Source: an uncultured SAR116 cluster alpha proteobacterium (GTDB lineage Bacteria > Pseudomonadota > Alphaproteobacteria > Puniceispirillales > Marisalimonadaceae). Taken from it: a stretch of DNA of 64,000 nucleotides. The position numbers and the translations under genes were made by a program. Under the pieces are notes generated by a model, which was given only the letters and a program-made list of their open reading frames with translations, was not told where the DNA came from and made no database searches. Below, in pieces: positions 2,588 to 59,822 of the stretch (the stretch's first letter is position 1; each line of letters begins with the position of its first letter). The stretch lies in NCBI GenBank assembly GCA_902615025.1, contig CACMNV010000004.1:9242-73241 (forward strand), read 5' to 3'.

Positions 2588-3865
2588 ATGACAGAACCAT
2601 TTGAATTAACTGCTACAAAAGCTCTTGAATTAATTGATAAAAATAAACTTTCATATTTAGAATGGATTGAAAGTTGTTTAGAAAGAATAAAAACAAGAGA
2701 ACCTTTTATTAAAGCCTTTTCCTACATTGATTATACGAGACCAATCGAATTAGCAAAAAAATGTGATCAAATAAAAAAGAAAAATTTTGGAATACCATTT
2801 GCTGCAAAAGACATTATTGATATTGAGGGTATGCCGACACAGATGGGCACACCTTTTTATTCAGAAAATATACCAAAAAGAGATGCTGGAAGTGTCGCAA
2901 TCGCTAAACACTATGGCTGTATTCCTATTGGCAAGACAGTGACAACTGAACTGGGTCACAGACACCCTGGCCCAACTGTTAATCCTCATAATTATGAACA
3001 TACCCCAGGTGGATCTAGCTCTGGTTCAGCTGCAGCAGTAGCAGAAAACATGGTACCTATTGCTTTTGGAACCCAAACAACTGGTTCTGTTATAAGACCT
3101 GCAGCTTATTGTGGAGTTATAGGCTATAAGCCAACTTATGGAGATTTTGATAAATCAGGAATTTTACCAAACTCTCCATCTATAGATACTTTAGGTCTTA
3201 TGGCTAGATCGATAGAAGATATACTTAGTATGAGAAATATTTTGATAGAAGAAGAATGTTTATTAAATGAAAATTTAAATATTAATGATATTAGGTTTGC
3301 GTTCGTTAAAACTCCTTACTGGGATAAAATAGATGACGACTCTAAAGTAAATCTAGAAAATTTTATTTCTAATCTGATAGAATTGAACGTTAATGTAGAA
3401 GAAATATATTTAAATAATTTAATTTTAAAGTCTAGTGAAATACATAAAAAAATAAGTGGATTTGAATTTAAAAGATCTATTTCCGCCGAACGTTTTCACC
3501 ACTATAATGAACTAAGTGATATCCTAAGAAATGGAAGGCTTAGTGACGGTGAAAATATGTCATTAAGTGATTACCATTATTTATTTGATCATCTTGAAAA
3601 ACATAAACATATGATTAATGACAAGATATCTTCTTATGACTGTATAATATCACCAAGTGCTCTAGGTGAAGCACTAAGTGGTTTAGAATATACAGGCTCA
3701 CCAGTGTTAAATACGACTTGGACTTTATTAGGATTACCATCAATAACACTACCAATGTTTAAAAGCAAAAATAATTTACCAATAGGTTGTCAATTTATTG
3801 CAAAGAAGGCTGAAGATAATAAACTTTTAAGTATTTCAAAAAAAATACTCTTAGAATTTAGCTAG
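2588..3865 (+). CDS. amidase-signature family amidase
   Basis: 425 aa. Has FAAKDIID (catalytic Lys context) and the GGSSSGSAAAVA Ser-cisSer-Lys signature. Divergent from PrpD paralog 1. Confidence 0.85.
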   Translation: MTEPFELTATKALELIDKNKLSYLEWIESCLERIKTREPFIKAFSYIDYTRPIELAKKCDQIKKKNFGIPFAAKDIIDIEGMPTQMGTPFYSENIPKRDAGSVAIAKHYGCIPIGKTVTTELGHRHPGPTVNPHNYEHTPGGSSSGSAAAVAENMVPIAFGTQTTGSVIRPAAYCGVIGYKPTYGDFDKSGILPNSPSIDTLGLMARSIEDILSMRNILIEEECLLNENLNINDIRFAFVKTPYWDKIDDDSKVNLENFISNLIELNVNVEEIYLNNLILKSSEIHKKISGFEFKRSISAERFHHYNELSDILRNGRLSDGENMSLSDYHYLFDHLEKHKHMINDKISSYDCIISPSALGEALSGLEYTGSPVLNTTWTLLGLPSITLPMFKSKNNLPIGCQFIAKKAEDNKLLSISKKILLEFS

Positions 3866-13941: not shown

Positions 13942-14737
13942 AAACATTGTACTTTGTGAAATAGATAGTAGAGGAATTGCAAATATTCATTTAAACAGAC
14001 CTCATAAAAATAATGCTTACAATGGGGAAATGATTGAGAGATTACTTGAAGTTTTTGAAGGTCTAAGTTCTCATAAATCTCTAAAAGCTATAGTAATAAG
14101 AGGTAATGGAAAACATTTTCAAGCTGGAGCAGATTTAGAATGGTTAAAGGAAATTGGAAAATTAACAAAAGATGAAAATTTCATAGTATCTAAAAAAACT
14201 GCTTTAGCGATAAAAGGTCTAACAGAATTTCCTAGACCCGTAATTTCTATAGTTCATGGTGGTTGCTTTGGTGGTGGAACAGGAATTGTAGCTGCATCTG
14301 ATATTGTAATAGCAGAAACGAAATCAATTTTTTCAATATCGGAAACTCGTTGGGGTGTAATGGCAGGCATAATAATACCTCAACTAAATAAATCCATTGG
14401 AGTTAGAAATGTCAGAAGATATGCAGTTTCTTCTGAGAGATTTAATGCAGATGAAGCCAAAAGAATTGGTTTAGTGCATGAAGTTTTAGATGAACAATTT
14501 ATTGAAGAAAAGTTAGAATCTATTTTAGATCACATTTTATTATGTGGTCCAGAGGCAATTTACCAAACAAAAATGAGAGCTTTAAAAGAAGCAAGCTTGA
14601 TTTTAACCGATAAGGAATTTAATGAATTGGTTGAAGAACATTCACTAAAAAGGATGAGCAATGAGGCTTTTGAAGGTCTAAATAGTTTTTCTGAAAAAAG
14701 AAATCCTTCTTGGTATCCAAAAATAAAGGATAATTGA
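13928..14737 (+). CDS. enoyl-CoA hydratase/isomerase (crotonase) family protein
   Basis: 269 aa. Crotonase oxyanion-hole regions (FQAGADL..., GGCFGGGTGIVAASD) and a methylglutaconyl-CoA-hydratase-like length. Confidence 0.85.
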   Translation: MMTDKNIVLCEIDSRGIANIHLNRPHKNNAYNGEMIERLLEVFEGLSSHKSLKAIVIRGNGKHFQAGADLEWLKEIGKLTKDENFIVSKKTALAIKGLTEFPRPVISIVHGGCFGGGTGIVAASDIVIAETKSIFSISETRWGVMAGIIIPQLNKSIGVRNVRRYAVSSERFNADEAKRIGLVHEVLDEQFIEEKLESILDHILLCGPEAIYQTKMRALKEASLILTDKEFNELVEEHSLKRMSNEAFEGLNSFSEKRNPSWYPKIKDN

Positions 14738-14738
14738 T

Positions 14739-16088
14739 ATGTCATCATTAGTTATTAATTCAAAAATCTGGGGTGAAATGTTTGGTACCAGAGAAATGTC
14801 AGAAATTTTTTCAGATAAAAACACTATACAATATTACCTCGATGTTGAAGCTGCACTTGCTCGAGTTCAATCAAGATTAGGGATAATTCCTAAAACCTGT
14901 GGTTTAGAAATTTCAAAAGTTGCAAAAACAGATTGGATTGACTGGGAATTATTAGAAAAAAGAACTTCTATTGTAGGGTATCCAATTTTACCATTAGTTG
15001 AACAATTAAGCTTAAAAGTAAAAAAGAATTTCGGGCAATATTGCCATTGGGGAGCAACAACACAAGATATAATGGACACAGCTGATGTTTTACAAATTAG
15101 AGATGCTTTATCAATCTTATTATCTGATTTAGTTGGAATTAAAAAAGTTTTAAAAAAACTTGTAAAAAAGTACATCAACACACCAATGTCTGGAAGAACT
15201 CATTTACAGCATGCTTTACCTACTTCTTTTGGCTATAAATGTAGCACATGGTTATCTGGTATTGAGAGACATATTGATAGAATTAAAGAAATAAAAGAGA
15301 GATTATTTTACGTTTCTTTTTTTGGAGCTGCAGGAACTCTTGCCTCTTTAGGAGAGAAAAATGGGCTAAGGACAAAGAACGGACTTGCTAAAGAATTAAA
15401 ATTAAAATCTCCAGATGTGAGTTGGCATTCGATTAGAGATAATTTTTGTGAGTTATCATCTTGGATTTCTCTAGTTAGCGCATCATTAGGTAAAATTGCT
15501 TATGATGTTATGCTAATGATGCAAACTGAAGTACAAGAGGTTAATGAGCCTTTTATTCATGGTAGGGGTTCATCTTCTACTATGCCACAAAAAAGAAATC
15601 CAATTTCATCTGAAGTGATTCTAGCTTGTTCTAAACTTTTAAGAGAACATCACTCTGCTATGCTTGATAGTATGGTATTAGATCATGAAAGAGCTACTGG
15701 TCAATGGCATTTGGAGTGGTACACATTACCTAAAATGTTTATAATTGCCTCTTCTTCATTTCGATGCTCAAGAGAATTATTAGAAGGAATCCAAGTTGAT
15801 AAAAAGAAAATGATAAATAATTTAAATCATACTAACGGACTAATTTTAGCCGAATCTGTAATGATGAAAATTGCTCCAAAACTTGGAAGACAAATAGCTC
15901 ACGATCTAGTATATGATTGCTGTAGAAAATCAATAACTAATAACATGAGTTTACTTGAAACACTAATAATGGATGAAAAAATATCTAAAAATTTTAGAAG
16001 AGAAGAAATAGAATTTTGTTTAAATCCTAAGAATTATTTAGGTGCTGCACCCAGAATGGCAGAAGAACTTTTAAAAAATGTCAAATGA
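14739..16088 (+). CDS. class II fumarase/aspartase-superfamily lyase, 3-carboxy-cis,cis-muconate cycloisomerase (PcaB)-like / adenylosuccinate-lyase-like
   Basis: 449 aa. Has the superfamily signature GSSSTMPQKRNP and WGATTQD, HLQHALP segments. Confidence 0.8.
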   Translation: MSSLVINSKIWGEMFGTREMSEIFSDKNTIQYYLDVEAALARVQSRLGIIPKTCGLEISKVAKTDWIDWELLEKRTSIVGYPILPLVEQLSLKVKKNFGQYCHWGATTQDIMDTADVLQIRDALSILLSDLVGIKKVLKKLVKKYINTPMSGRTHLQHALPTSFGYKCSTWLSGIERHIDRIKEIKERLFYVSFFGAAGTLASLGEKNGLRTKNGLAKELKLKSPDVSWHSIRDNFCELSSWISLVSASLGKIAYDVMLMMQTEVQEVNEPFIHGRGSSSTMPQKRNPISSEVILACSKLLREHHSAMLDSMVLDHERATGQWHLEWYTLPKMFIIASSSFRCSRELLEGIQVDKKKMINNLNHTNGLILAESVMMKIAPKLGRQIAHDLVYDCCRKSITNNMSLLETLIMDEKISKNFRREEIEFCLNPKNYLGAAPRMAEELLKNVK

Positions 16089-46252: not shown

Positions 46253-46675
46253 TTAACTAGTTACTTTGAAAAGAACTTCTGGATTTGTCATAGTTTTAAT
46301 TTCCAAAACATTACCATTTGGATCTTCAACAAAGAAAGTTTCTTGTTCAAATTCAGTGCCTTTAAATCTCCTGTATGGTTTATCTAAATAATCAATATCA
46401 CTAGCTTCAATTCTTTTTTTAACATTTTGAAAAATGTCTTCATCAAGATGTACTCCAAAATGTGGAACACAAACTTCTCCCATATCGACATGATGTCTTT
46501 CTCTATTCTGTCTAGTTTCCGTTTGATGAAGAGTTAGTTCATTTCCCCAAAAATCAACGTCGATCCAATGACCCTCTTCTTGATTTCCCGTTTTACATCC
46601 TAAAATGTCTTTGTAAAATTTTAAAGCTGTAGGGATATCTCCTGCAGGCACTGCCAAATGAAAAGTGTTAGCCAT
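46253..46675 (-). CDS. VOC (glyoxalase/bleomycin-resistance/dioxygenase) family protein
   Basis: 140 aa. FHLAVP..D...A..FY.D.LG N-terminal VOC motif and a C-terminal FVEDPNGNVLE. Confidence 0.7.
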   Translation of the reverse strand: MANTFHLAVPAGDIPTALKFYKDILGCKTGNQEEGHWIDVDFWGNELTLHQTETRQNRERHHVDMGEVCVPHFGVHLDEDIFQNVKKRIEASDIDYLDKPYRRFKGTEFEQETFFVEDPNGNVLEIKTMTNPEVLFKVTS

Positions 46676-53345: not shown

Positions 53346-54080
53346 TTAAAATAAAAGTCTCAGCGCTAGTAAAAATAAAATTGTTTCAAAAATAACCTTA
53401 AATGTTTTCTCATCAATTTTGAATAATAAAATTTGACCTACCCTGCTACCTAATATTGTACTAGGTATCATTAATAAAATTAAAGTTAAATATTCATAAA
53501 AATTAAATCCTATAAACATAAATCCAATAATTTTAATTAGGTTTCCTATAAAACCAAAAAAACCTAAAGTACCTACTATTTCCTCTTTTTTAGTTAAATT
53601 ATTTCTAATTATTATAGCCAAAATTGGTGCTATAACGCCGACTAACATATTCATAACTCCTGTAAAAAAACCTAGGACATAATAAAAATTTTCAGGAATT
53701 CTAACTTTTTTATTTTTCTTAATATTTTGAAATACTATTGTTGAAATAATGAATGCACCAATTAAAAACTTAATTTTTTGTGAATCTAAATTTTGAAAAA
53801 TTGTTAATCCTAAATAAACTCCAAATGGTATAAACATACAAAAAGGAATTATTAATTTCCAAACTAAATACTCTCTAAATAAAAATACCCTTGCTACATT
53901 TGAAGTTAACTGGACCGTACCATGAATTGGTATTGCCACTAATGGATTTATAAACTGAAGCATGTAAGCTAATAAAATTGTACCACCACCAGCGCCTGCA
54001 AGAGATGTGATCATCGCTGTAAAAAAACTTACGATTATAATAGAAATGGTAATTAAATAATTATCAAGTATGACATCCAT
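53346..54080 (-). CDS. TauE/SafE-family anion (sulfite/sulfonate) exporter-like membrane protein
   Basis: 244 aa with 7-8 TM segments and an internal-duplication pattern typical of TauE/SafE. Confidence 0.7.
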   Translation of the reverse strand: MDVILDNYLITISIIIVSFFTAMITSLAGAGGGTILLAYMLQFINPLVAIPIHGTVQLTSNVARVFLFREYLVWKLIIPFCMFIPFGVYLGLTIFQNLDSQKIKFLIGAFIISTIVFQNIKKNKKVRIPENFYYVLGFFTGVMNMLVGVIAPILAIIIRNNLTKKEEIVGTLGFFGFIGNLIKIIGFMFIGFNFYEYLTLILLMIPSTILGSRVGQILLFKIDEKTFKVIFETILFLLALRLLF

Positions 54081-54174
54081 AAATTAGTTTTTTTTGAGCT
54101 GAAATTCTAAAAATTGCATTGTTTGCGCCATAACCATCATAACTTTTATTTCGTTGAACAAATTCTAAAAAAAA

Positions 54175-55872
54175 TCAATTATTTATTAATGTTGTATAAA
54201 TTTGGAAAAAAGAGCCATCACTGTCTTCATCATAAAGTATATTATTTTCTTTTATTTTTTTTAAAATATTTGTTTCTAAACCAAACTTAGCGTCAATATA
54301 ATCATAGTAATTGTCAGATATTTTTAGAGTTTTTAAACCTAGATCATTAAATTTTTTTGATAATTTAAAAATATCATTTGTACGCAAAGCTATATGTTGA
54401 ATATTTGATATATGTTTTTTTTTCCTTAACTGGCTAGTCAAAGTTTCATCATTTTCAGCTGAATTTATTACTATCTTAAATGTTTTAGATTTATTCTCTA
54501 TTACATGGCTTTTTGTAATTCCACCTGGATCAATTATATCAGTATTTGAAATTTTTTTACATTCAAATAAGGACTTATAAAACAATACAGATGATAATAA
54601 AGTTGAATGTTCTACAGATATAGCAATATGATCAAACTCTAAATTTGAATTTTGACTATCTTGGTCTAAAAAATTGAAATCATTCTGCCAATTTTTATTA
54701 TCAATTAAAAAAATATATTGCCCATTTTCTTCTATCAAGTTCATTTTAAATTTATTGTTGAGATAAAAATCTTTTACATTGTTTACTTTTAATGCCTTGC
54801 ATCTTTTGAGTGTTGATTGAACATTATCTACCACAAGTCCAAAAGCATAAGGGTTGAATTCTCCTAAATTTTCATCTGGAACTATTTCTGAATTAATTAT
54901 AAATTTTACATTTCCCAATATATATAAAGTAATTTTTTTTGTTTTGTGAAGACCTGCTTTAATGAAACCAAGACTCTTCAGTAATTTTTGAATAATATTT
55001 AGATCTTCTTTTTTAACAGAAAACTCTATAAATTCTATTTTTTCAATTTTTGCTCTTTCTACAATTTCATTTTTTTTTGATAAATTAATAAGAGATCTAT
55101 AACCATCCTTTGTTATTAAGTCTCTATTATCTTTTCTAAATTGATCGTTAAAGATTTCCAGTGAAATCCAACTATCGTACCCAGTATCATAAAGTTTTTC
55201 CATAAATTCTGATACTTTAAGATCCCCTTGACCAGGCATATTTCGGAAATGTCTACTCCAAAACAAAAGATCCATATTATATTTTGGTGCATCAGCAATT
55301 TGAACAATAAATATTTTTTCCTTTGGAATTGAAGTAAACGTATCAAGATTTATACCTTTAGATAAGGTATGAAAGGAGTCTAAAATTATACCAACATGTT
55401 TGTGATTTGCTCTTCTTACAATTTCCCATGCGTCTCTATGATCCGATATATATTTTCCACAAGCTAAAGCCTCGTATCCTATAAAAATATCTCTTACTTT
55501 TGCTATTTCACCTAAGTCATTGAAATCATCAGCCGCTCTGTCAATCCCTCCTAAGGCCAAGTTAGATGTGTTTGAACATATCAAAATAGTTTTTGCTCCT
55601 AGCTCATTCATGACATCAAACTTCTTCTTTGCTCGATCAAATGCCCTAGATCTGTATGGCTCGGTCATCCCCTCAAAATCTCTGAATGGCTGAAACAATG
55701 AAATTTCTAATCCATAATCATACACCATTTTTTTAATTTCTTTTGGCTTGAGATCATGAACTAAAAAATCATTTTCAAAAATTTCTACACCTTTAAATCC
55801 CATATTAGAAATAGATTTCAATTTTTGATCTAAAGATCCATTAATTGATACTGTTGCTATAGACGTTTTAAT
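54175..55872 (-). CDS. quiC: 3-dehydroshikimate dehydratase, QsuB/QuiC1 type (xylose-isomerase-like TIM barrel fused to an HPPD-like VOC domain)
   Basis: LFQPFRDFEG, YEALA.GK, IFIVQIADAP and SLEIFND.FRK are colinear with QsuB as I recall it. The C-terminal half is VOC/HPPD-like (DHIA...IQHIAL). The N-terminus is extended 17 codons beyond the track start to an ATT codon (see findings): (I/M)KTSIATVSINGSLDQKLKSISNMGFKGVEIFEND. Confidence 0.9.
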   Translation of the reverse strand: MKTSIATVSINGSLDQKLKSISNMGFKGVEIFENDFLVHDLKPKEIKKMVYDYGLEISLFQPFRDFEGMTEPYRSRAFDRAKKKFDVMNELGAKTILICSNTSNLALGGIDRAADDFNDLGEIAKVRDIFIGYEALACGKYISDHRDAWEIVRRANHKHVGIILDSFHTLSKGINLDTFTSIPKEKIFIVQIADAPKYNMDLLFWSRHFRNMPGQGDLKVSEFMEKLYDTGYDSWISLEIFNDQFRKDNRDLITKDGYRSLINLSKKNEIVERAKIEKIEFIEFSVKKEDLNIIQKLLKSLGFIKAGLHKTKKITLYILGNVKFIINSEIVPDENLGEFNPYAFGLVVDNVQSTLKRCKALKVNNVKDFYLNNKFKMNLIEENGQYIFLIDNKNWQNDFNFLDQDSQNSNLEFDHIAISVEHSTLLSSVLFYKSLFECKKISNTDIIDPGGITKSHVIENKSKTFKIVINSAENDETLTSQLRKKKHISNIQHIALRTNDIFKLSKKFNDLGLKTLKISDNYYDYIDAKFGLETNILKKIKENNILYDEDSDGSFFQIYTTLINN

Positions 55873-56908
55873 CCTTTAACTCCACTAGTTTTTTTGTTTT
55901 TGATGAAAGTTTAATAGCTTCAATTACCTTGATTGTTTCGTTTGCTATTGATGCGGTAATAATTGGTTTTTCTTTTTTTTCTATTACCTTACAGAAATGT
56001 TCGATTTGATTCACTAAAGGATCTGAAAATTTGTATGGATAATTCGTTCCAGAAATAGGTGAAAACCAATGACCATTTTTTGTATGTTGCCATAATTTCA
56101 AATTTGGTAGAGACATTGAAGCTTTCGTTCCACCAATCAAATAACTTGATTCTTCGGTCGAAGGATAAATTTCGTTTTCTCTAGCAGTTAATTCCCAACT
56201 CCAGGGTGAAACAACACTGTCAGAAGTCAGAAACGTAGCTATTATTCCATTTTTAAATTCCAAAACAGCCCCTGATACGTCTTCGTTATCAAAACCTCTT
56301 AAAGAATTTTGTGATATGGAAAAAACCTTAGCAATTTTTCCAAACAAAAAATTCATCAAATCAAGATCATGAATGAGATTAACAAAGATAGGTCCTGCAC
56401 CATCATTTTTTTTCCAATTAGCTTCTTTAAAATAATTATTAGGTTTGAACATTTGACAATTGATATTAACAGTTCTTACTTTCCCTAGGAAATTATTATC
56501 TATTAACTCTTTAGCTTTGTGCATTATAGAGTTATGCCTTCTATGATGACCAACTAATATTTGAACATTCATTCTTTTTGCTTCAGATATTAATTTATCA
56601 GTATCAATAGAACGAATTGTGATAGGCTTTTCTATTAAAACTGTACATTTATGTTTTATAACTTCTATCCCATCTTTAAAATGAGATGAGTTTGGAGTGG
56701 CTATAATTACGCCATCAATTGTTTCTGATTTAAACATATCTTTAATAGAAGAATAAAAATTGGCATTAACTTTATCTCCTATTGAATTTTTTTTTAAATC
56801 AACAACTGCTTTAAGTTTAGCTTTATTAGTTTTACTTATAGCGTCAATGTGTTTTAAGCCCATAACGCCAATACCAACGACTGCTAATTTAATTTTTCTA
56901 TTTTTCAT
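55868..56908 (-). CDS. Gfo/Idh/MocA-family NAD(P)-dependent oxidoreductase
   Basis: 346 aa. N-terminal Rossmann IKLAVVGIGVMG, EKP motif (VLIEKPI), C-terminal alpha/beta domain. Confidence 0.85.
   Translation of the reverse strand: MKNRKIKLAVVGIGVMGLKHIDAISKTNKAKLKAVVDLKKNSIGDKVNANFYSSIKDMFKSETIDGVIIATPNSSHFKDGIEVIKHKCTVLIEKPITIRSIDTDKLISEAKRMNVQILVGHHRRHNSIMHKAKELIDNNFLGKVRTVNINCQMFKPNNYFKEANWKKNDGAGPIFVNLIHDLDLMNFLFGKIAKVFSISQNSLRGFDNEDVSGAVLEFKNGIIATFLTSDSVVSPWSWELTARENEIYPSTEESSYLIGGTKASMSLPNLKLWQHTKNGHWFSPISGTNYPYKFSDPLVNQIEHFCKVIEKKEKPIITASIANETIKVIEAIKLSSKTKKLVELKD
55870..55883 (-). promoter_or_regulatory. SD (GGAG) + 7-nt spacer + ATT initiation codon of the dehydratase gene, overlapping the upstream stop codon
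   Basis: The minus strand reads GGAG TTAAAGG ATT AAA ACG. GAT TAA of the upstream gene overlaps ATT by one nt. An in-frame TAA lies two codons upstream of the ATT. Confidence 0.65.
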
Positions 56909-57794: not shown

Positions 57795-58898
57795 TTAGCT
57801 AAAATTACTTATCTTTGCTTCGATTAAACCATATTCTGTTTTTACAAAGTAATTATTTGAATTATCAATCGATATGTCTTTTTCGTAAGCTATCATAAAT
57901 CCCATATTTTTTTTGAATTTTGGAGAAAATATTACTGAAGTAATTTCACCAATTTCCTTTTTTTCATAATAACATTTAGGCTTACTTTTAATGTTTAGAC
58001 CACTTTCTCCAAAAAAAACGCGATATATGTTTCGTTTTTCTTTATTTTTAATATAATTACTTAAAGCAACTTTACCTACAAAGTTATAAGACATATCAAT
58101 TGAACAGTATTTTCCTAGAGAACAATCAAAAGGTGTGTCTTTAGAAGTCATATCATTTCCATAACTTAATAAAGAGTTTTCAACTCTTTCAATCATATTT
58201 GGACAACCAGCATTTATATTAAATGGTTTACCCTCTTTCATTACATAGTCCCAGAAATCACAAGCAATTTTTGCATCATCAAAAAGAAATTCAAATCCTC
58301 CTTGCTTACTATATCCCGTTTTAGAAACTAGAACTCGAGTATTCTTAAAATCAAAAAAATCAAAGCTGAAAAATGGTAAAGAAAGAAATTTCTTATCAAT
58401 TAACTCTTCAGTTAATTTGATAGCCTTGGGACCTTGCAACGCTAATGTATAAATATTTTTGTTTTTTACTTTAACATTGAAATTCAAATTAACTAACAAA
58501 CCACTAAACCACATGAACATGTCAGAGTCTGAAATTGATACCCAAATAGTTTCTTCGTCTATAGAGTATACTAAAGTATCATTTAATAAACCTCCACTAA
58601 AGTTAGTCATAGGTGTGTAATAGCATTTAAATTTATCAATTATTTCAAAATTTCGACAAGATACATAACGAAGAAAATTTAATGCATCAGATCCTTTGAT
58701 CTCTATTATTTTTTGACAAGATACATCCCACATTTGAACATGGTTGATAAGATGATAGTAATCTTCTTCATAACTATTAAATATTGTAGGCAAAAGTGTC
58801 TTGTTATATATTGTATATGATGATACTCCAGCAAGAGCATTCCTTGATGTAAATGGAGTAGAGTCAATTCTATTGGATTGAGTTAATTTGTAATCCAT
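57795..58898 (-). CDS. GcvT-family tetrahydrofolate-dependent aminomethyltransferase/demethylase (DmdA-like size and N-terminus)
   Basis: 367 aa. STPFTSRN...YTIYNKTLLPTIF...EDYYHLINHVQMWDVSCQKIIEIKG and ...SKTGYSKQGGFEF fit the GcvT fold and resemble DMSP demethylase as I remember it. Confidence 0.8.
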   Translation of the reverse strand: MDYKLTQSNRIDSTPFTSRNALAGVSSYTIYNKTLLPTIFNSYEEDYYHLINHVQMWDVSCQKIIEIKGSDALNFLRYVSCRNFEIIDKFKCYYTPMTNFSGGLLNDTLVYSIDEETIWVSISDSDMFMWFSGLLVNLNFNVKVKNKNIYTLALQGPKAIKLTEELIDKKFLSLPFFSFDFFDFKNTRVLVSKTGYSKQGGFEFLFDDAKIACDFWDYVMKEGKPFNINAGCPNMIERVENSLLSYGNDMTSKDTPFDCSLGKYCSIDMSYNFVGKVALSNYIKNKEKRNIYRVFFGESGLNIKSKPKCYYEKKEIGEITSVIFSPKFKKNMGFMIAYEKDISIDNSNNYFVKTEYGLIEAKISNFS

Positions 58899-58925
58899 AT
58901 ACAGAAAATATAAAAGGAATAAGAT

Positions 58926-59822
58926 TTGATCAACAACAATTTTGAAAAAAAATTAAAAAGTAAAGAGTTTGTATTTACAGCTGAGACATCACCTCCTGAT
59001 TCAACAGTTAGATCTGAAGTAACTGATAGAGTTCTATGTCTCAAGGATCTAGCAGATGCAATAAATGTAACAGATGGTGCAAGTGCAAAATCACACCTTT
59101 CTTCACTTGTGGTTTCATCTATAATAAAAGATATTGAAATTGAGCCAATTCTTCAATTAACAACACGAGATAGAAACAGAATAGCCATTCAATCAGATTT
59201 ACTTGGAGCCTGGACATTAAATATACAAAATATTTTATGTATTTATGGAGATCAAGTAGAAACAGGTGATCAACCAGAAACAAAAGAAGTTCGTGACCTA
59301 GATACTTTAGGAGTTATAAATACTGCAAATTATTTCAAAAAAGAAAAAAAATTTCCATCTGGTAGATCTATAAAATCAGCACCTGAGTTTTTTATAGGTG
59401 GTGCAGATACTCCATTTGAAATAGATGAAAAATTTGATTGTGGAAATTTAATTAAAAAAATTGAACAAGGAGTTAATTTTTTTCAAACTCAGTATGCTTT
59501 TGATGCTCAAATTCTAAAAAAATATATGGATAGATTGAAAAAATTTAATATTACTAAAAAGGCCTATTACCTTGTTGGATTAGGAGTCATCAAGTCTGCA
59601 AAAAGTGCTAAATGGATGAATAAAAATCTTTATGGTATTAACATTCCAAATTCAATAATTCAAAGATTAGAAGATTCTACAAATGAAAGTAAAGAAGGAA
59701 TTAAAATTTGTATAGAACTAATAGAAAAATATCAAGAAATTGAAGGTGTTCATGGAATTCATTTGATGGGTTATCATCAAGAAGAACAAATTGCGGAAGT
59801 AATATCACATTTTAAAAAATAG
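58926..59822 (+). CDS. metF: methylenetetrahydrofolate reductase family protein
   Basis: 298 aa. TAETSPP, NVTDGA, QLTTRDRNRIAIQSDLLGA, IYGD and FQTQYAFD align with MTHFR beta-strand ends. TTG start. Confidence 0.8.
   Translation: MINNNFEKKLKSKEFVFTAETSPPDSTVRSEVTDRVLCLKDLADAINVTDGASAKSHLSSLVVSSIIKDIEIEPILQLTTRDRNRIAIQSDLLGAWTLNIQNILCIYGDQVETGDQPETKEVRDLDTLGVINTANYFKKEKKFPSGRSIKSAPEFFIGGADTPFEIDEKFDCGNLIKKIEQGVNFFQTQYAFDAQILKKYMDRLKKFNITKKAYYLVGLGVIKSAKSAKWMNKNLYGINIPNSIIQRLEDSTNESKEGIKICIELIEKYQEIEGVHGIHLMGYHQEEQIAEVISHFKK

What the first reader, a model, noticed from the sequence alone, without database searches (positions are those of the whole stretch)
55868..55885. 3-dehydroshikimate dehydratase can only initiate at an ATT codon that overlaps the upstream gene's stop
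The ORF track starts this gene at TTG 55821 (MKSISNMGFKGVEIFEND). The same frame stays open 17 codons further upstream and encodes IKTSIATVSINGSLDQKL. This is colinear, residue for residue, with the N-terminus of QsuB/QuiC-type enzymes as I recall them (M-R-T-S-I-A-T-V-C-L-S-G-T-L-A-E-K-L ... G-F-D-G-V-E-I-F-E). That segment forms the first beta-strand of the TIM barrel, so it should not be dispensable.

The upstream frame reads TAA AGG ATT AAA ACG. An in-frame stop lies two codons before the ATT, and no ATG, GTG or TTG occurs before the conserved TSIATVS segment. ATT (55872-55870) aligns exactly with Met1 of the homologues. A GGAG lies 7 nt upstream. The ATT shares one nucleotide with the TAA of the Gfo/Idh/MocA gene (GATTAAA). 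ATT initiation is rare in bacteria (infC is the classic case) and often implies IF3-sensitive, low or regulated translation.
Basis: seen in the sequence. Interest (0 to 1): 0.62.

Follow-up and report, generated by a model that had tools for sequence, protein, structure and literature searches.

The report
Conserved ATT start overlapping upstream stop
A sugar-acid dehydratase gene in a group of uncultured marine bacteria has no normal start codon and almost certainly starts at the rare codon ATT, so every database copy is annotated about 20 residues too short.

Summary
The QuiC1/QsuB-type 3-dehydroshikimate dehydratase gene (minus strand, 55872..54175) has no ATG, GTG or TTG before its conserved N-terminus. 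The frame reads TAA AGG ATT AAA ACG TCT ATA GCA. The last T of ATT (55870) is the first base of the upstream Gfo/Idh/MocA stop codon TAA.

- About 150 homologues start at this exact codon (MKTSIATVS): ATG in nearly all, GTG in three.
- Ten independent relatives (86-98% identity) all keep ATT.
- Across them the gene has dN/dS of about 0.12, and the 23-codon extension is equally constrained.
- Neither downstream start is conserved: TTG is TTA in one relative and ATG is ATA in another.
- Either downstream start would remove strand beta1 and part or all of helix alpha1 of the TIM barrel.
- An outgroup with the same gene pair reads TAA-A-ATG at the same columns. The G-to-T change that turned ATG into ATT therefore also created the upstream gene's present stop.
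- RNA contigs span the junction.

How initiation works (reinitiation or de novo, IF3 sensitivity) is inferred, not shown. This is a new member of a known kind, of moderate interest. Separately, the window's own copy carries a premature TGA and four private changes at invariant residues.

The parts
55870..55872 (-). ATT, the proposed initiation codon (AUU, read as fMet) of the dehydratase gene.
   Evidence: It aligns with Met1 (ATG or GTG) of about 150 homologues and with the ATG of outgroup L088 in a gapless DNA alignment. It is invariant in 11 clade loci and in metagenome and metatranscriptome contigs.
55868..55870 (-). TAA stop codon of the upstream Gfo/Idh/MocA oxidoreductase gene. Its first T is the third base of ATT.
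   Evidence: ORF 55868..56908, sequence GATTAAA. In outgroup L088 the stop lies two codons earlier and this triplet reads TGA-A inside ATGAAA.
55880..55883 (-). GGAG, a Shine-Dalgarno-like motif 7 nt upstream of ATT, inside the last codons of the upstream gene (GTG GAG = Val-Glu).
   Evidence: It is conserved in all 11 clade loci. The same TGGAGTT plus 7-nt spacing precedes the ATG of ORF 46253..46675, and about 15 of 68 window ORFs have such a core. The outgroup has GTT GAG (TGAG) here.
55876..55878 (-). In-frame stop codon (TAA) two codons upstream of ATT. It closes the dehydratase frame.
   Evidence: It is TAA or TGA in every clade locus.
55822..55872 (-). The 17 codons that start-codon-based ORF calling leaves out (IKTSIATVSINGSLDQK). 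They encode strand beta1 and the first part of helix alpha1 of the TIM barrel.
   Evidence: Model: E2-7, H14-24, E28-32. In codons 1-17, 6 of the 8 variable sites are at third codon positions. For codons 1-23, L081 vs L001 gives sd = 7 and nd = 3 on S = 16.3 and N = 52.7.
55819..55821 (-). TTG, the start used by the mechanical ORF list. It is not conserved.
   Evidence: It is TTA in L001.
55801..55803 (-). ATG (MGFKG...), the start that public gene callers use for this clade. It is not conserved.
   Evidence: It is ATA in L084. 30 of 33 clade database proteins start here and 3 start at the TTG.
54175..55872 (-). QuiC1/QsuB-type two-domain 3-dehydroshikimate dehydratase CDS as it stands in this window: 565 codons plus a premature TGA.
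   Evidence: Pfam AP_endonuc_2 plus Glyoxalase_5. PDB 5hmq at E = 5.9e-107. NCBIfam QuiC 436 bits.
54175..54177 (-). Premature TGA, private to this genome (TCA = Ser in all 10 relatives).
54064..54174 (-). The remaining 36 codons and the normal stop of the ancestral CDS, still in frame after the premature TGA. It overlaps the TauE start by 17 nt.
   Evidence: Relatives are open for 602 codons. The segment holds the family-conserved FFEFVQR...GYG...FRI..AQ motif.
55868..56908 (-). Upstream Gfo/Idh/MocA NAD-dependent oxidoreductase gene (346 aa), co-transcribed with the dehydratase gene and overlapping it by 5 nt.
   Evidence: Pfam. Best NCBIfam match is IolG-like, below cutoff. RNA contigs span the junction. 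No terminator-like site lies between the genes.

Best explanation
**What it is.** The dehydratase gene is translated from AUU (ATT 55872-55870), read by initiator tRNA as fMet. The product starts MKTSIATVS..., like all its homologues.

**How it arose.** ATT descends from an ancestral ATG. An outgroup with the same gene pair has ...GAG TTA TAA A ATG AAA. In this clade the old upstream stop was lost. The G-to-T change in ATG turned GAT GAA into GAT TAA, which gave the upstream oxidoreductase gene its present stop. The two genes now overlap by 5 nt (ATTAA). Every stop codon begins with T and every canonical start ends in G, so this overlap cannot hold a canonical start. Reverting to ATG would destroy the upstream stop.

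**How it most likely works (inferred, not shown).** The two genes sit on one mRNA. Ribosomes arrive in one of two ways: by terminating at UAA, or de novo through the conserved GGAG 7 nt upstream. They then start at the adjacent AUU. This should be several-fold to about 100-fold less efficient than at AUG, and sensitive to IF3. The result would be less dehydratase than oxidoreductase.

**Shown here:** homology of ATT to Met1, its fixation in the clade, purifying selection on the extension, co-transcription, and the absence of any conserved canonical alternative.

**Inferred:** the initiating event itself, coupling to upstream translation, and any regulatory meaning.
For: 1. About 150 homologues start at this exact codon, with ATG in nearly all and GTG in 3. 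All 86 next-closest database proteins (54-57% identity) begin MKTSIATVSING.
2. Eleven clade loci from independent SAGs, MAGs and metagenomes all have ATT. Each has a stop two codons upstream and no canonical start before SIATVS.
3. The gene is under strong purifying selection across the clade: dN/dS 0.11-0.15 at dS up to 0.45. The 23-codon extension behaves the same way (L081 vs L001: sd = 7, nd = 3, S = 16.3, N = 52.7). Six of the 8 variable sites in codons 1-17 are at third positions.
4. Neither downstream start is conserved. TTG is TTA in L001 and ATG is ATA in L084.
5. In the model, residues 2-7 form beta1 and 14-24 form alpha1. Counting ATT as residue 1 puts the QsuB active-site residues at their published numbers: R64, L97, E134, L136, D165, H168, Q191, S206, R210, E239 (PMC7442255).
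6. A gapless DNA alignment with outgroup L088 (same gene pair; 54% identity for the dehydratase and 55% for the oxidoreductase) places its ATG on the clade's ATT. It places the outgroup's TAA on the clade's AAG/AAA/ACT codon.
7. GGAG with a 7-nt spacer is conserved, and similar motifs precede other genes in the window.
8. Metatranscriptome contigs from 3 runs cross the junction without any change at 55868-55885. There is no terminator-like site and no significant RNA structure there.
9. Precedent: AUU starts infC and pcnB in E. coli. In reporters it gives 1-2% of AUG (10.1101/063800) or 6-8 times less than AUG (PMC3592434). At the infC-type UAA GGU AUU junction, expression was read as roughly half reinitiation and half de novo initiation.
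Against: - There is no direct evidence of the protein's N-terminus or of initiating ribosomes. The organisms are uncultured.
- AUU is a poor start in E. coli, so a functional enzyme would be made at low level unless this lineage is more permissive.
- The conservation of the triplet itself is only weakly informative. Its T is fixed by the upstream stop, and its AT are positions 2-3 of the upstream gene's last codon.
- The evolutionary scenario rests on a single outgroup locus.
- Metatranscriptome contigs can contain DNA and drop rare variants.
- The copy in this window carries a premature stop and four private changes at invariant residues. In this genome the gene may no longer be fully functional.
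Confidence: 0.77

Rival explanations
1. Translation starts at the downstream TTG (55821) or ATG (55803), as public annotation has it. The enzyme then works without its first 17-23 residues.
For: These are the only canonical start codons. All 33 clade proteins in the database are called this way.
Against: - TTG is TTA in L001 and ATG is ATA in L084, so neither start is available across the whole clade.
- The upstream 17-23 codons evolve under the same coding constraint as the rest of the gene.
- They encode beta1 and alpha1 of the barrel.
- None of about 150 homologues starts there.
- No SD-like motif precedes the TTG.
Confidence: 0.08
2. Translation starts at another non-canonical codon in the short open stretch: ACG (codon 3) or ATA (codon 5).
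For: Both are near-cognate codons, are in frame and are conserved.
Against: - They are conserved as Thr and Ile of the family motif K-T-S-I-A, so their conservation says nothing about initiation.
- GGAG would lie 13 or 19 nt away, outside the usual SD spacing.
- ATT is the codon that aligns with Met1, and with the outgroup's ATG.
Confidence: 0.07
3. A programmed +1 frameshift near the end of the upstream gene makes an oxidoreductase-dehydratase fusion, so no start codon is needed.
For: The dehydratase frame is +1 relative to the upstream frame, and a stop codon sits at the junction, as at the prfB shift site.
Against: - The shift would have to occur within the last two upstream codons, because the dehydratase frame has a stop just before them.
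- Those codons differ between lineages (AAG GAT, AAA GAT, ACT TAT) and none is slippery.
- No homologue among 120 listed hits is longer than 614 aa, so no fused form is known.
- The outgroup has a plain TAA-A-ATG junction.
Confidence: 0.03
4. The missing start marks a dead gene (a pseudogene across the clade), or it is a sequencing or assembly error.
For: The window's own copy has a premature TGA and four private changes at invariant sites.
Against: - Ten other assemblies have an intact 602-codon frame with ATT.
- dN/dS is 0.11-0.15 over dS up to 0.45.
- ATT is seen in 4 metagenomes and 3 metatranscriptomes.
- The damage is private to this genome and arose later than ATT.
Confidence: 0.03

Closest known systems
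infC (IF3) and pcnB of Escherichia coli, the confirmed AUU-initiated bacterial genes
   Same: Both have AUU at the position where orthologues have a canonical start. Both have an SD at normal spacing. infC also lies directly behind the stop of the preceding gene (UAA GGU AUU) and is expressed partly by reinitiation (PMC3592434; 10.1101/063800).
   Different: Here the gene encodes a catabolic enzyme, not a translation or RNA-metabolism factor. There is no evident autoregulatory logic. The AUU physically overlaps the upstream stop (a 5-nt gene overlap) instead of following it by 3 nt. Nothing has been tested experimentally.
Overlapping stop/start gene pairs (ATGA, TAATG/TGATG) with translational coupling by termination-reinitiation
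   Same: Co-oriented, co-transcribed genes whose stop and start codons share bases. An SD sits inside the upstream gene's end (PMC6728339 and PMC10666635, listed; PMC3592434).
   Different: The common overlaps are 4 nt and 1 nt and use ATG or GTG. This one is 5 nt: the start's third base is the stop's first base. It therefore requires a start codon ending in T and cannot be canonical.
QuiC1 (Pseudomonas putida, PDB 5hmq) and QsuB (Corynebacterium glutamicum), two-domain 3-dehydroshikimate dehydratases
   Same: Same architecture (xylose-isomerase-like TIM barrel plus HPPD-like domain), alignment over the full length, and all ten listed active-site residues present at the same numbers.
   Different: - The score against NCBIfam's QuiC equivalog model is 436 bits, below the 1200-bit cutoff.
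- The genomic context is different (Gfo/Idh/MocA, TauE, amine oxidase), and no pca genes were seen nearby.
- The substrate has not been verified.
- The start is ATT, and this window's copy lacks the last 37 residues.

Membership tests
AUU-initiated bacterial genes (infC/pcnB kind) | ATT at the codon homologous to the initiator Met of orthologues | tested here: met
   About 150 homologues have ATG or GTG at this codon. A gapless DNA alignment with outgroup L088 puts its ATG on the ATT.
AUU-initiated bacterial genes (infC/pcnB kind) | No canonical in-frame start that could give the conserved N-terminus | tested here: met
   A stop lies two codons upstream. The first canonical start is codon 18 in the window, and neither downstream start is conserved in the clade.
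AUU-initiated bacterial genes (infC/pcnB kind) | ATT conserved among relatives in which the gene is under purifying selection | tested here: met
   11 of 11 clade loci have ATT. dN/dS is 0.11-0.15.
AUU-initiated bacterial genes (infC/pcnB kind) | Experimentally determined N-terminus or mapped initiating ribosomes at the AUU | not testable with these tools
   The lineage is uncultured, and no proteomic or ribosome-profiling data were available here.
AUU-initiated bacterial genes (infC/pcnB kind) | Expression responds to IF3 level | not testable with these tools
   This is known for infC and for non-canonical starts in E. coli (PMC2268962). It is only an inference here.
Translationally coupled overlapping gene pair (termination-reinitiation) | Co-oriented genes with overlapping or nearly adjacent stop and start codons | tested here: met
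   The 5-nt overlap ATTAA. The outgroup has a 1-nt gap, TAA-A-ATG.
Translationally coupled overlapping gene pair (termination-reinitiation) | Both genes on one transcript | tested here: met
   Metatranscriptome contigs from 3 runs span 55685-56039, and no terminator-like site was found. Caveats: these are contigs, the depth is low, and DNA carry-over is possible.
Translationally coupled overlapping gene pair (termination-reinitiation) | Downstream translation depends on upstream translation | not testable with these tools
   This needs a reporter carrying a premature stop in the upstream gene.
QuiC1/QsuB two-domain 3-dehydroshikimate dehydratase | N-terminal xylose-isomerase-like TIM barrel fused to a C-terminal HPPD-like domain | tested here: met
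   Pfam PF01261 (E = 4.6e-40) and PF14696. 5hmq aligns over residues 3-561 at E = 5.9e-107.
QuiC1/QsuB two-domain 3-dehydroshikimate dehydratase | Active-site residues R64, L97, E134, L136, D165, H168, Q191, S206, R210, E239 | tested here: met
   All ten are invariant columns at these numbers when ATT is counted as residue 1. The residue list comes from PMC7442255.
QuiC1/QsuB two-domain 3-dehydroshikimate dehydratase | Score at or above the NCBIfam equivalog cutoff for QuiC (NF042435) | tested here: not met
   436 bits against a cutoff of 1200. NCBI gives relatives only a generic domain name. The gene is therefore filed as QuiC1-like by architecture, not as a proven QuiC equivalog.
QuiC1/QsuB two-domain 3-dehydroshikimate dehydratase | Converts 3-dehydroshikimate to protocatechuate | not testable with these tools
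   This requires an enzyme assay.

The most novel reading that the evidence does not exclude
The ATTAA overlap could be an obligate coupling device. AUU would be too weak to be used by free 30S subunits under IF3 proofreading. It would then be read essentially only by ribosomes that have just terminated on the overlapping UAA, held in place by the nearby GGAG. Dehydratase synthesis would be a fixed, small fraction of oxidoreductase synthesis, with no independent expression. If so, 5-nt overlaps (ATT plus a stop) would be a general, overlooked class of gene junction in AT-rich streamlined genomes, systematically mis-annotated because gene callers do not allow ATT.
Probability: 0.15. Interest if true: 0.6.

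Novelty: new member of a known kind. Interest (0 to 1): 0.4.

Why it matters
**For annotation.** Every public copy of this protein from the clade is called 17-23 residues short. That is 33 cluster representatives in a database of 5.8 billion proteins. The calls lack the first strand and part or all of the first helix of the catalytic barrel. Anyone expressing the annotated ORF would probably get a misfolded protein.

**For translation biology.**
- It adds a natural, population-wide, selection-supported AUU start to a very short list of such genes.
- It has an unusually clear origin: one G-to-T change both weakened a start codon and created the neighbouring gene's stop.
- Since then the start's third base has been held by the upstream stop that it forms.
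- It shows that a 5-nt stop/start overlap exists in nature, although no canonical start codon can form one.

It does not change any principle.

Tried and rejected
- **Sequencing error or RNA editing.** Rejected: 10 other assemblies, 4 metagenomes and 3 metatranscriptomes all show ATT.
- **Frameshift fusion.** Rejected: there is no conserved slippery site and no fused homologue.
- **Structured RNA at the junction.** Not supported: MFE -6 kcal/mol, z = 0.33. There were no Rfam hits in the window.
- **Internal promoter or terminator between the genes.** Promoter-like hits are at chance level (24 found against 21.4 expected) and there are no terminators.
- **Narrow read-laying at the premature TGA (54110-54250).** Almost nothing was placed, so this was uninformative. 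No public run holds this exact genome; the best run holds 47% of the sampled words. A sequencing error at the TGA in this one assembly therefore cannot be excluded.
- **Other ATT-plus-stop overlaps between long ORFs in the window.** The only other one is at 14733, and a normal ATG follows two codons later. This is not a general feature of the window.
- **Paper on reinitiation at non-canonical codons (PMC4648390).** It turned out to be about Xenopus oocytes and is not relevant.
- **Intermediates between 57% and 86% identity.** None were found in the protein database or the contig collections.
Full report
**1. The observation**

On the minus strand the region reads ...AAA AAA CTA GTG GAG TTA AAG GAT TAA in the frame of a 346-aa Gfo/Idh/MocA oxidoreductase (ORF 55868..56908). 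One base out of phase it reads TAG TGG AGT TAA AGG ATT AAA ACG TCT ATA GCA ACA GTA TCA ATT AAT GGA TCT TTA GAT CAA AAA TTG AAA....

- ATT is at 55872-55870.
- The upstream gene's TAA is at 55870-55868, so the two codons share T 55870 and the genes overlap by 5 nt.
- The dehydratase frame is closed by TAA two codons before ATT.
- The first ATG, GTG or TTG is the TTG at 55821 (codon 18).
- GGAG lies at 55883-55880, 7 nt before ATT.

**2. What the gene is**

- The product has a xylose-isomerase-like TIM barrel (PF01261, E = 4.6e-40) followed by an HPPD-like domain (PF14696).
- It aligns over residues 3-561 with PDB 5hmq at E = 5.9e-107. From my own knowledge, 5hmq is P. putida QuiC1; the entry is deposited as '4-hydroxyphenylpyruvate dioxygenase'.
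- The best NCBIfam model is '3-dehydroshikimate dehydratase QuiC'. At 436 bits it falls below the equivalog cutoff of 1200.
- The ten active-site residues listed for QuiC1/QsuB (PMC7442255) are all invariant columns in an alignment with 19 homologues. They fall at their published numbers only when ATT is counted as residue 1.

I therefore treat the gene as a QuiC1-like dehydratase by architecture and active site. Its substrate has not been verified.

**3. The upstream stretch is coding, and ATT is the homologue of Met1**

- I fetched 161 related loci from genome and metagenome collections. About 150 of them read M-K/R-T-S-I-A-T-V at exactly this place. The start is ATG in nearly all and GTG in three. 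In one locus (L020) a GTG sits one codon earlier, followed by ATA.
- The 86 next-closest database proteins (54-57% identity, SAR116-type) all begin MKTSIATVSING.
- An AlphaFold model (mean pLDDT 75) puts residues 2-7 in strand beta1, 14-24 in helix alpha1 and 28-32 in beta2. A start at the TTG (residue 18) or the ATG (residue 24) would therefore delete beta1 and part or all of alpha1.

**4. ATT is fixed in a clade in which the gene is clearly functional**

- Ten further loci at 86-98% protein identity all have ATT. They are L001, L081-L085 and L162-L165, and include three single-cell or MAG assemblies from NCBI, a Mediterranean MAG and several metagenome contigs.
- Each has a stop (TAA or TGA) two codons upstream and no canonical start before SIATVS.
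- Pairwise dN/dS for the whole gene is 0.11-0.15, with dS up to 0.45.
- In the first 23 codons, L081 vs L001 gives 7 synonymous and 3 non-synonymous differences on 16.3 and 52.7 sites. That is the same constraint as in the rest of the gene.
- In codons 1-17, six of the eight variable sites are third positions. By my calculation this has a binomial p of about 0.02.
- Neither downstream start is universal. TTG is TTA in L001 and ATG is ATA in L084.
- All 33 clade proteins in the large protein database are called from one of those two starts, so all are truncated.
- Metagenome contigs from four runs and metatranscriptome contigs from three runs show no variant at 55870-55872. They do show two coexisting haplotypes of the preceding codon, AGG and CTT.

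**5. Origin**

One more distant locus, L088, has the same gene pair. Its dehydratase is 54% identical and its oxidoreductase 55% identical. Its junction reads ...GTT GAG TTA TAA A ATG AAA ACT....

The DNA aligns with the clade without gaps:
- The outgroup's ATG lies on the clade's ATT.
- The outgroup's stop TAA lies on the clade's AAG/AAA/ACT codon.

In the clade the oxidoreductase is therefore two codons longer (K-D or T-Y). It ends at a TAA whose T is the mutated third base of the old ATG.

Stop codons begin with T and canonical starts end with G, so a 5-nt overlap of this kind cannot contain a canonical start. Reverting ATT to ATG would remove the upstream stop, and the next stop in that frame is nine codons on (read).

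The outgroup has GTT GAG where the clade has GTG GAG. This synonymous change turns TGAG into GGAG. It may be compensatory strengthening of the SD, but that rests on a single outgroup.

**6. Mechanism**

*Shown:* the two genes are contiguous on RNA contigs. No terminator-like site or significant RNA structure lies at the junction. SD-like GGAG/AGGA cores precede about 15 of 68 ORFs in the window. One of them has the same TGGAGTT plus 7-nt arrangement before an ATG.

*Inferred from E. coli work:*
- AUU is used by infC and pcnB.
- In reporters AUU gives 1-2% of AUG (10.1101/063800) or 6-8 times less than AUG (PMC3592434).
- At the infC-type junction UAA GGU AUU, about half of expression is attributed to reinitiation and half to de novo initiation.
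- IF3 discriminates against non-canonical starts and also restrains reinitiation, less so when an SD is present (PMC2268962).

The most likely reading is therefore SD-assisted initiation at AUU. Part of it would come from ribosomes terminating on the overlapping UAA. The dehydratase would be made at a lower level than the oxidoreductase. Whether this low level is adaptive, or simply tolerated after a locked-in mutation, cannot be decided here.

**7. Rivals**

- *Start at TTG or ATG.* This is contradicted by the non-conservation of both codons and by the constraint on, and structure of, the extension.
- *Start at ACG (codon 3) or ATA (codon 5).* This cannot be excluded by sequence. It is disfavoured by the SD spacing and by the alignment with Met1.
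- *A +1 frameshift fusion.* It lacks a conserved slippery site, since the last two upstream codons differ between lineages. It also has no fused homologue; the longest hit is 614 aa.
- *Pseudogene or sequencing error.* This is excluded for the clade as a whole.

**8. This genome's copy is damaged**

Compared with all ten relatives, the window has private changes P70T, E119D, W138C and D525Y. All four lie at residues invariant across nine distant homologues. It also has TCA to TGA at codon 566 (54177-54175). That cuts off 37 residues containing a motif conserved across the family.

- Seven of the window-derived changes in this gene are non-synonymous, against two in the oxidoreductase gene and none in the two downstream genes.
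- Metagenome contigs carry the conserved base at four of these sites.
- The isolated N-terminal domain of QsuB keeps its activity in vitro but performs worse in vivo (PMC7442255). The window's copy may therefore be impaired rather than dead.
- No public run holds this exact genome, so an assembly error at the TGA cannot be excluded.

This damage is private to this one genome, whereas ATT is shared by the whole clade, so it arose later than ATT and is independent of it.

**9. Verdict**

This is a new, well-documented member of a known and rare kind: an AUU-initiated bacterial gene. It has an unusual 5-nt stop/start overlap and a clear mutational origin. Interest is moderate. It matters most for annotation and as a natural test case for non-canonical initiation at coupled genes.

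Noticed in passing
window 54175-54177 (also 55665, 55516, 55459, 54300): The window's dehydratase copy has a premature in-frame TGA, where all 10 relatives have TCA (Ser). The stop removes the last 37 conserved residues. The copy also has four private substitutions (P70T, E119D, W138C, D525Y) at residues invariant across the family. It is either a recently impaired or decaying gene in this genome, or errors in this one assembly.
   Followed up: partly
L088 1480-1510: A more distant marine relative has the same oxidoreductase-dehydratase pair with a canonical junction, TAA-A-ATG. It serves as the outgroup showing how the ATTAA overlap arose. In the SAR116 genome L003 the dehydratase gene instead stands alone behind a divergent gene.
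   Followed up: yes
window 57795-59822: Next to the GntR regulator lie a GCV_T-family aminomethyltransferase-like gene and a methylenetetrahydrofolate reductase gene. This pairing resembles tetrahydrofolate-dependent aryl O-demethylase systems (LigM/MetF type), which also yield protocatechuate. The resemblance is from memory and was not tested. No protocatechuate ring-cleavage genes were seen among the neighbours scanned.
   Followed up: no
window 54064-54080: In intact relatives the 3' end of the dehydratase gene overlaps the start of the next gene (TauE-family membrane protein) by 17 nt. The whole row of genes (oxidoreductase, dehydratase, TauE, amine oxidase) is tightly packed on one strand.
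   Followed up: partly
window 55873-55877, in metagenome runs X1, X2 and X4: Two haplotypes of the junction (AAG G-ATT and ACT T-ATT, matching the window-like and L001-like lineages) coexist in the same seawater samples. Both keep ATTAA.
   Followed up: partly
L020 about 2995-3010 (Rhizobium helianthi): This is the only distant homologue without ATG or GTG at the Met1 position. It reads GTG ATA AAA ACC, so the start appears to have moved one codon upstream. It is a second, independent loss of the ancestral ATG in this family.
   Followed up: no
window 14733-14741: This is the only other ATT+stop 5-nt overlap between long ORFs in the window (ATTGA). An ATG follows two codons later with its own SD, so it is an ordinary junction.
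   Followed up: yes
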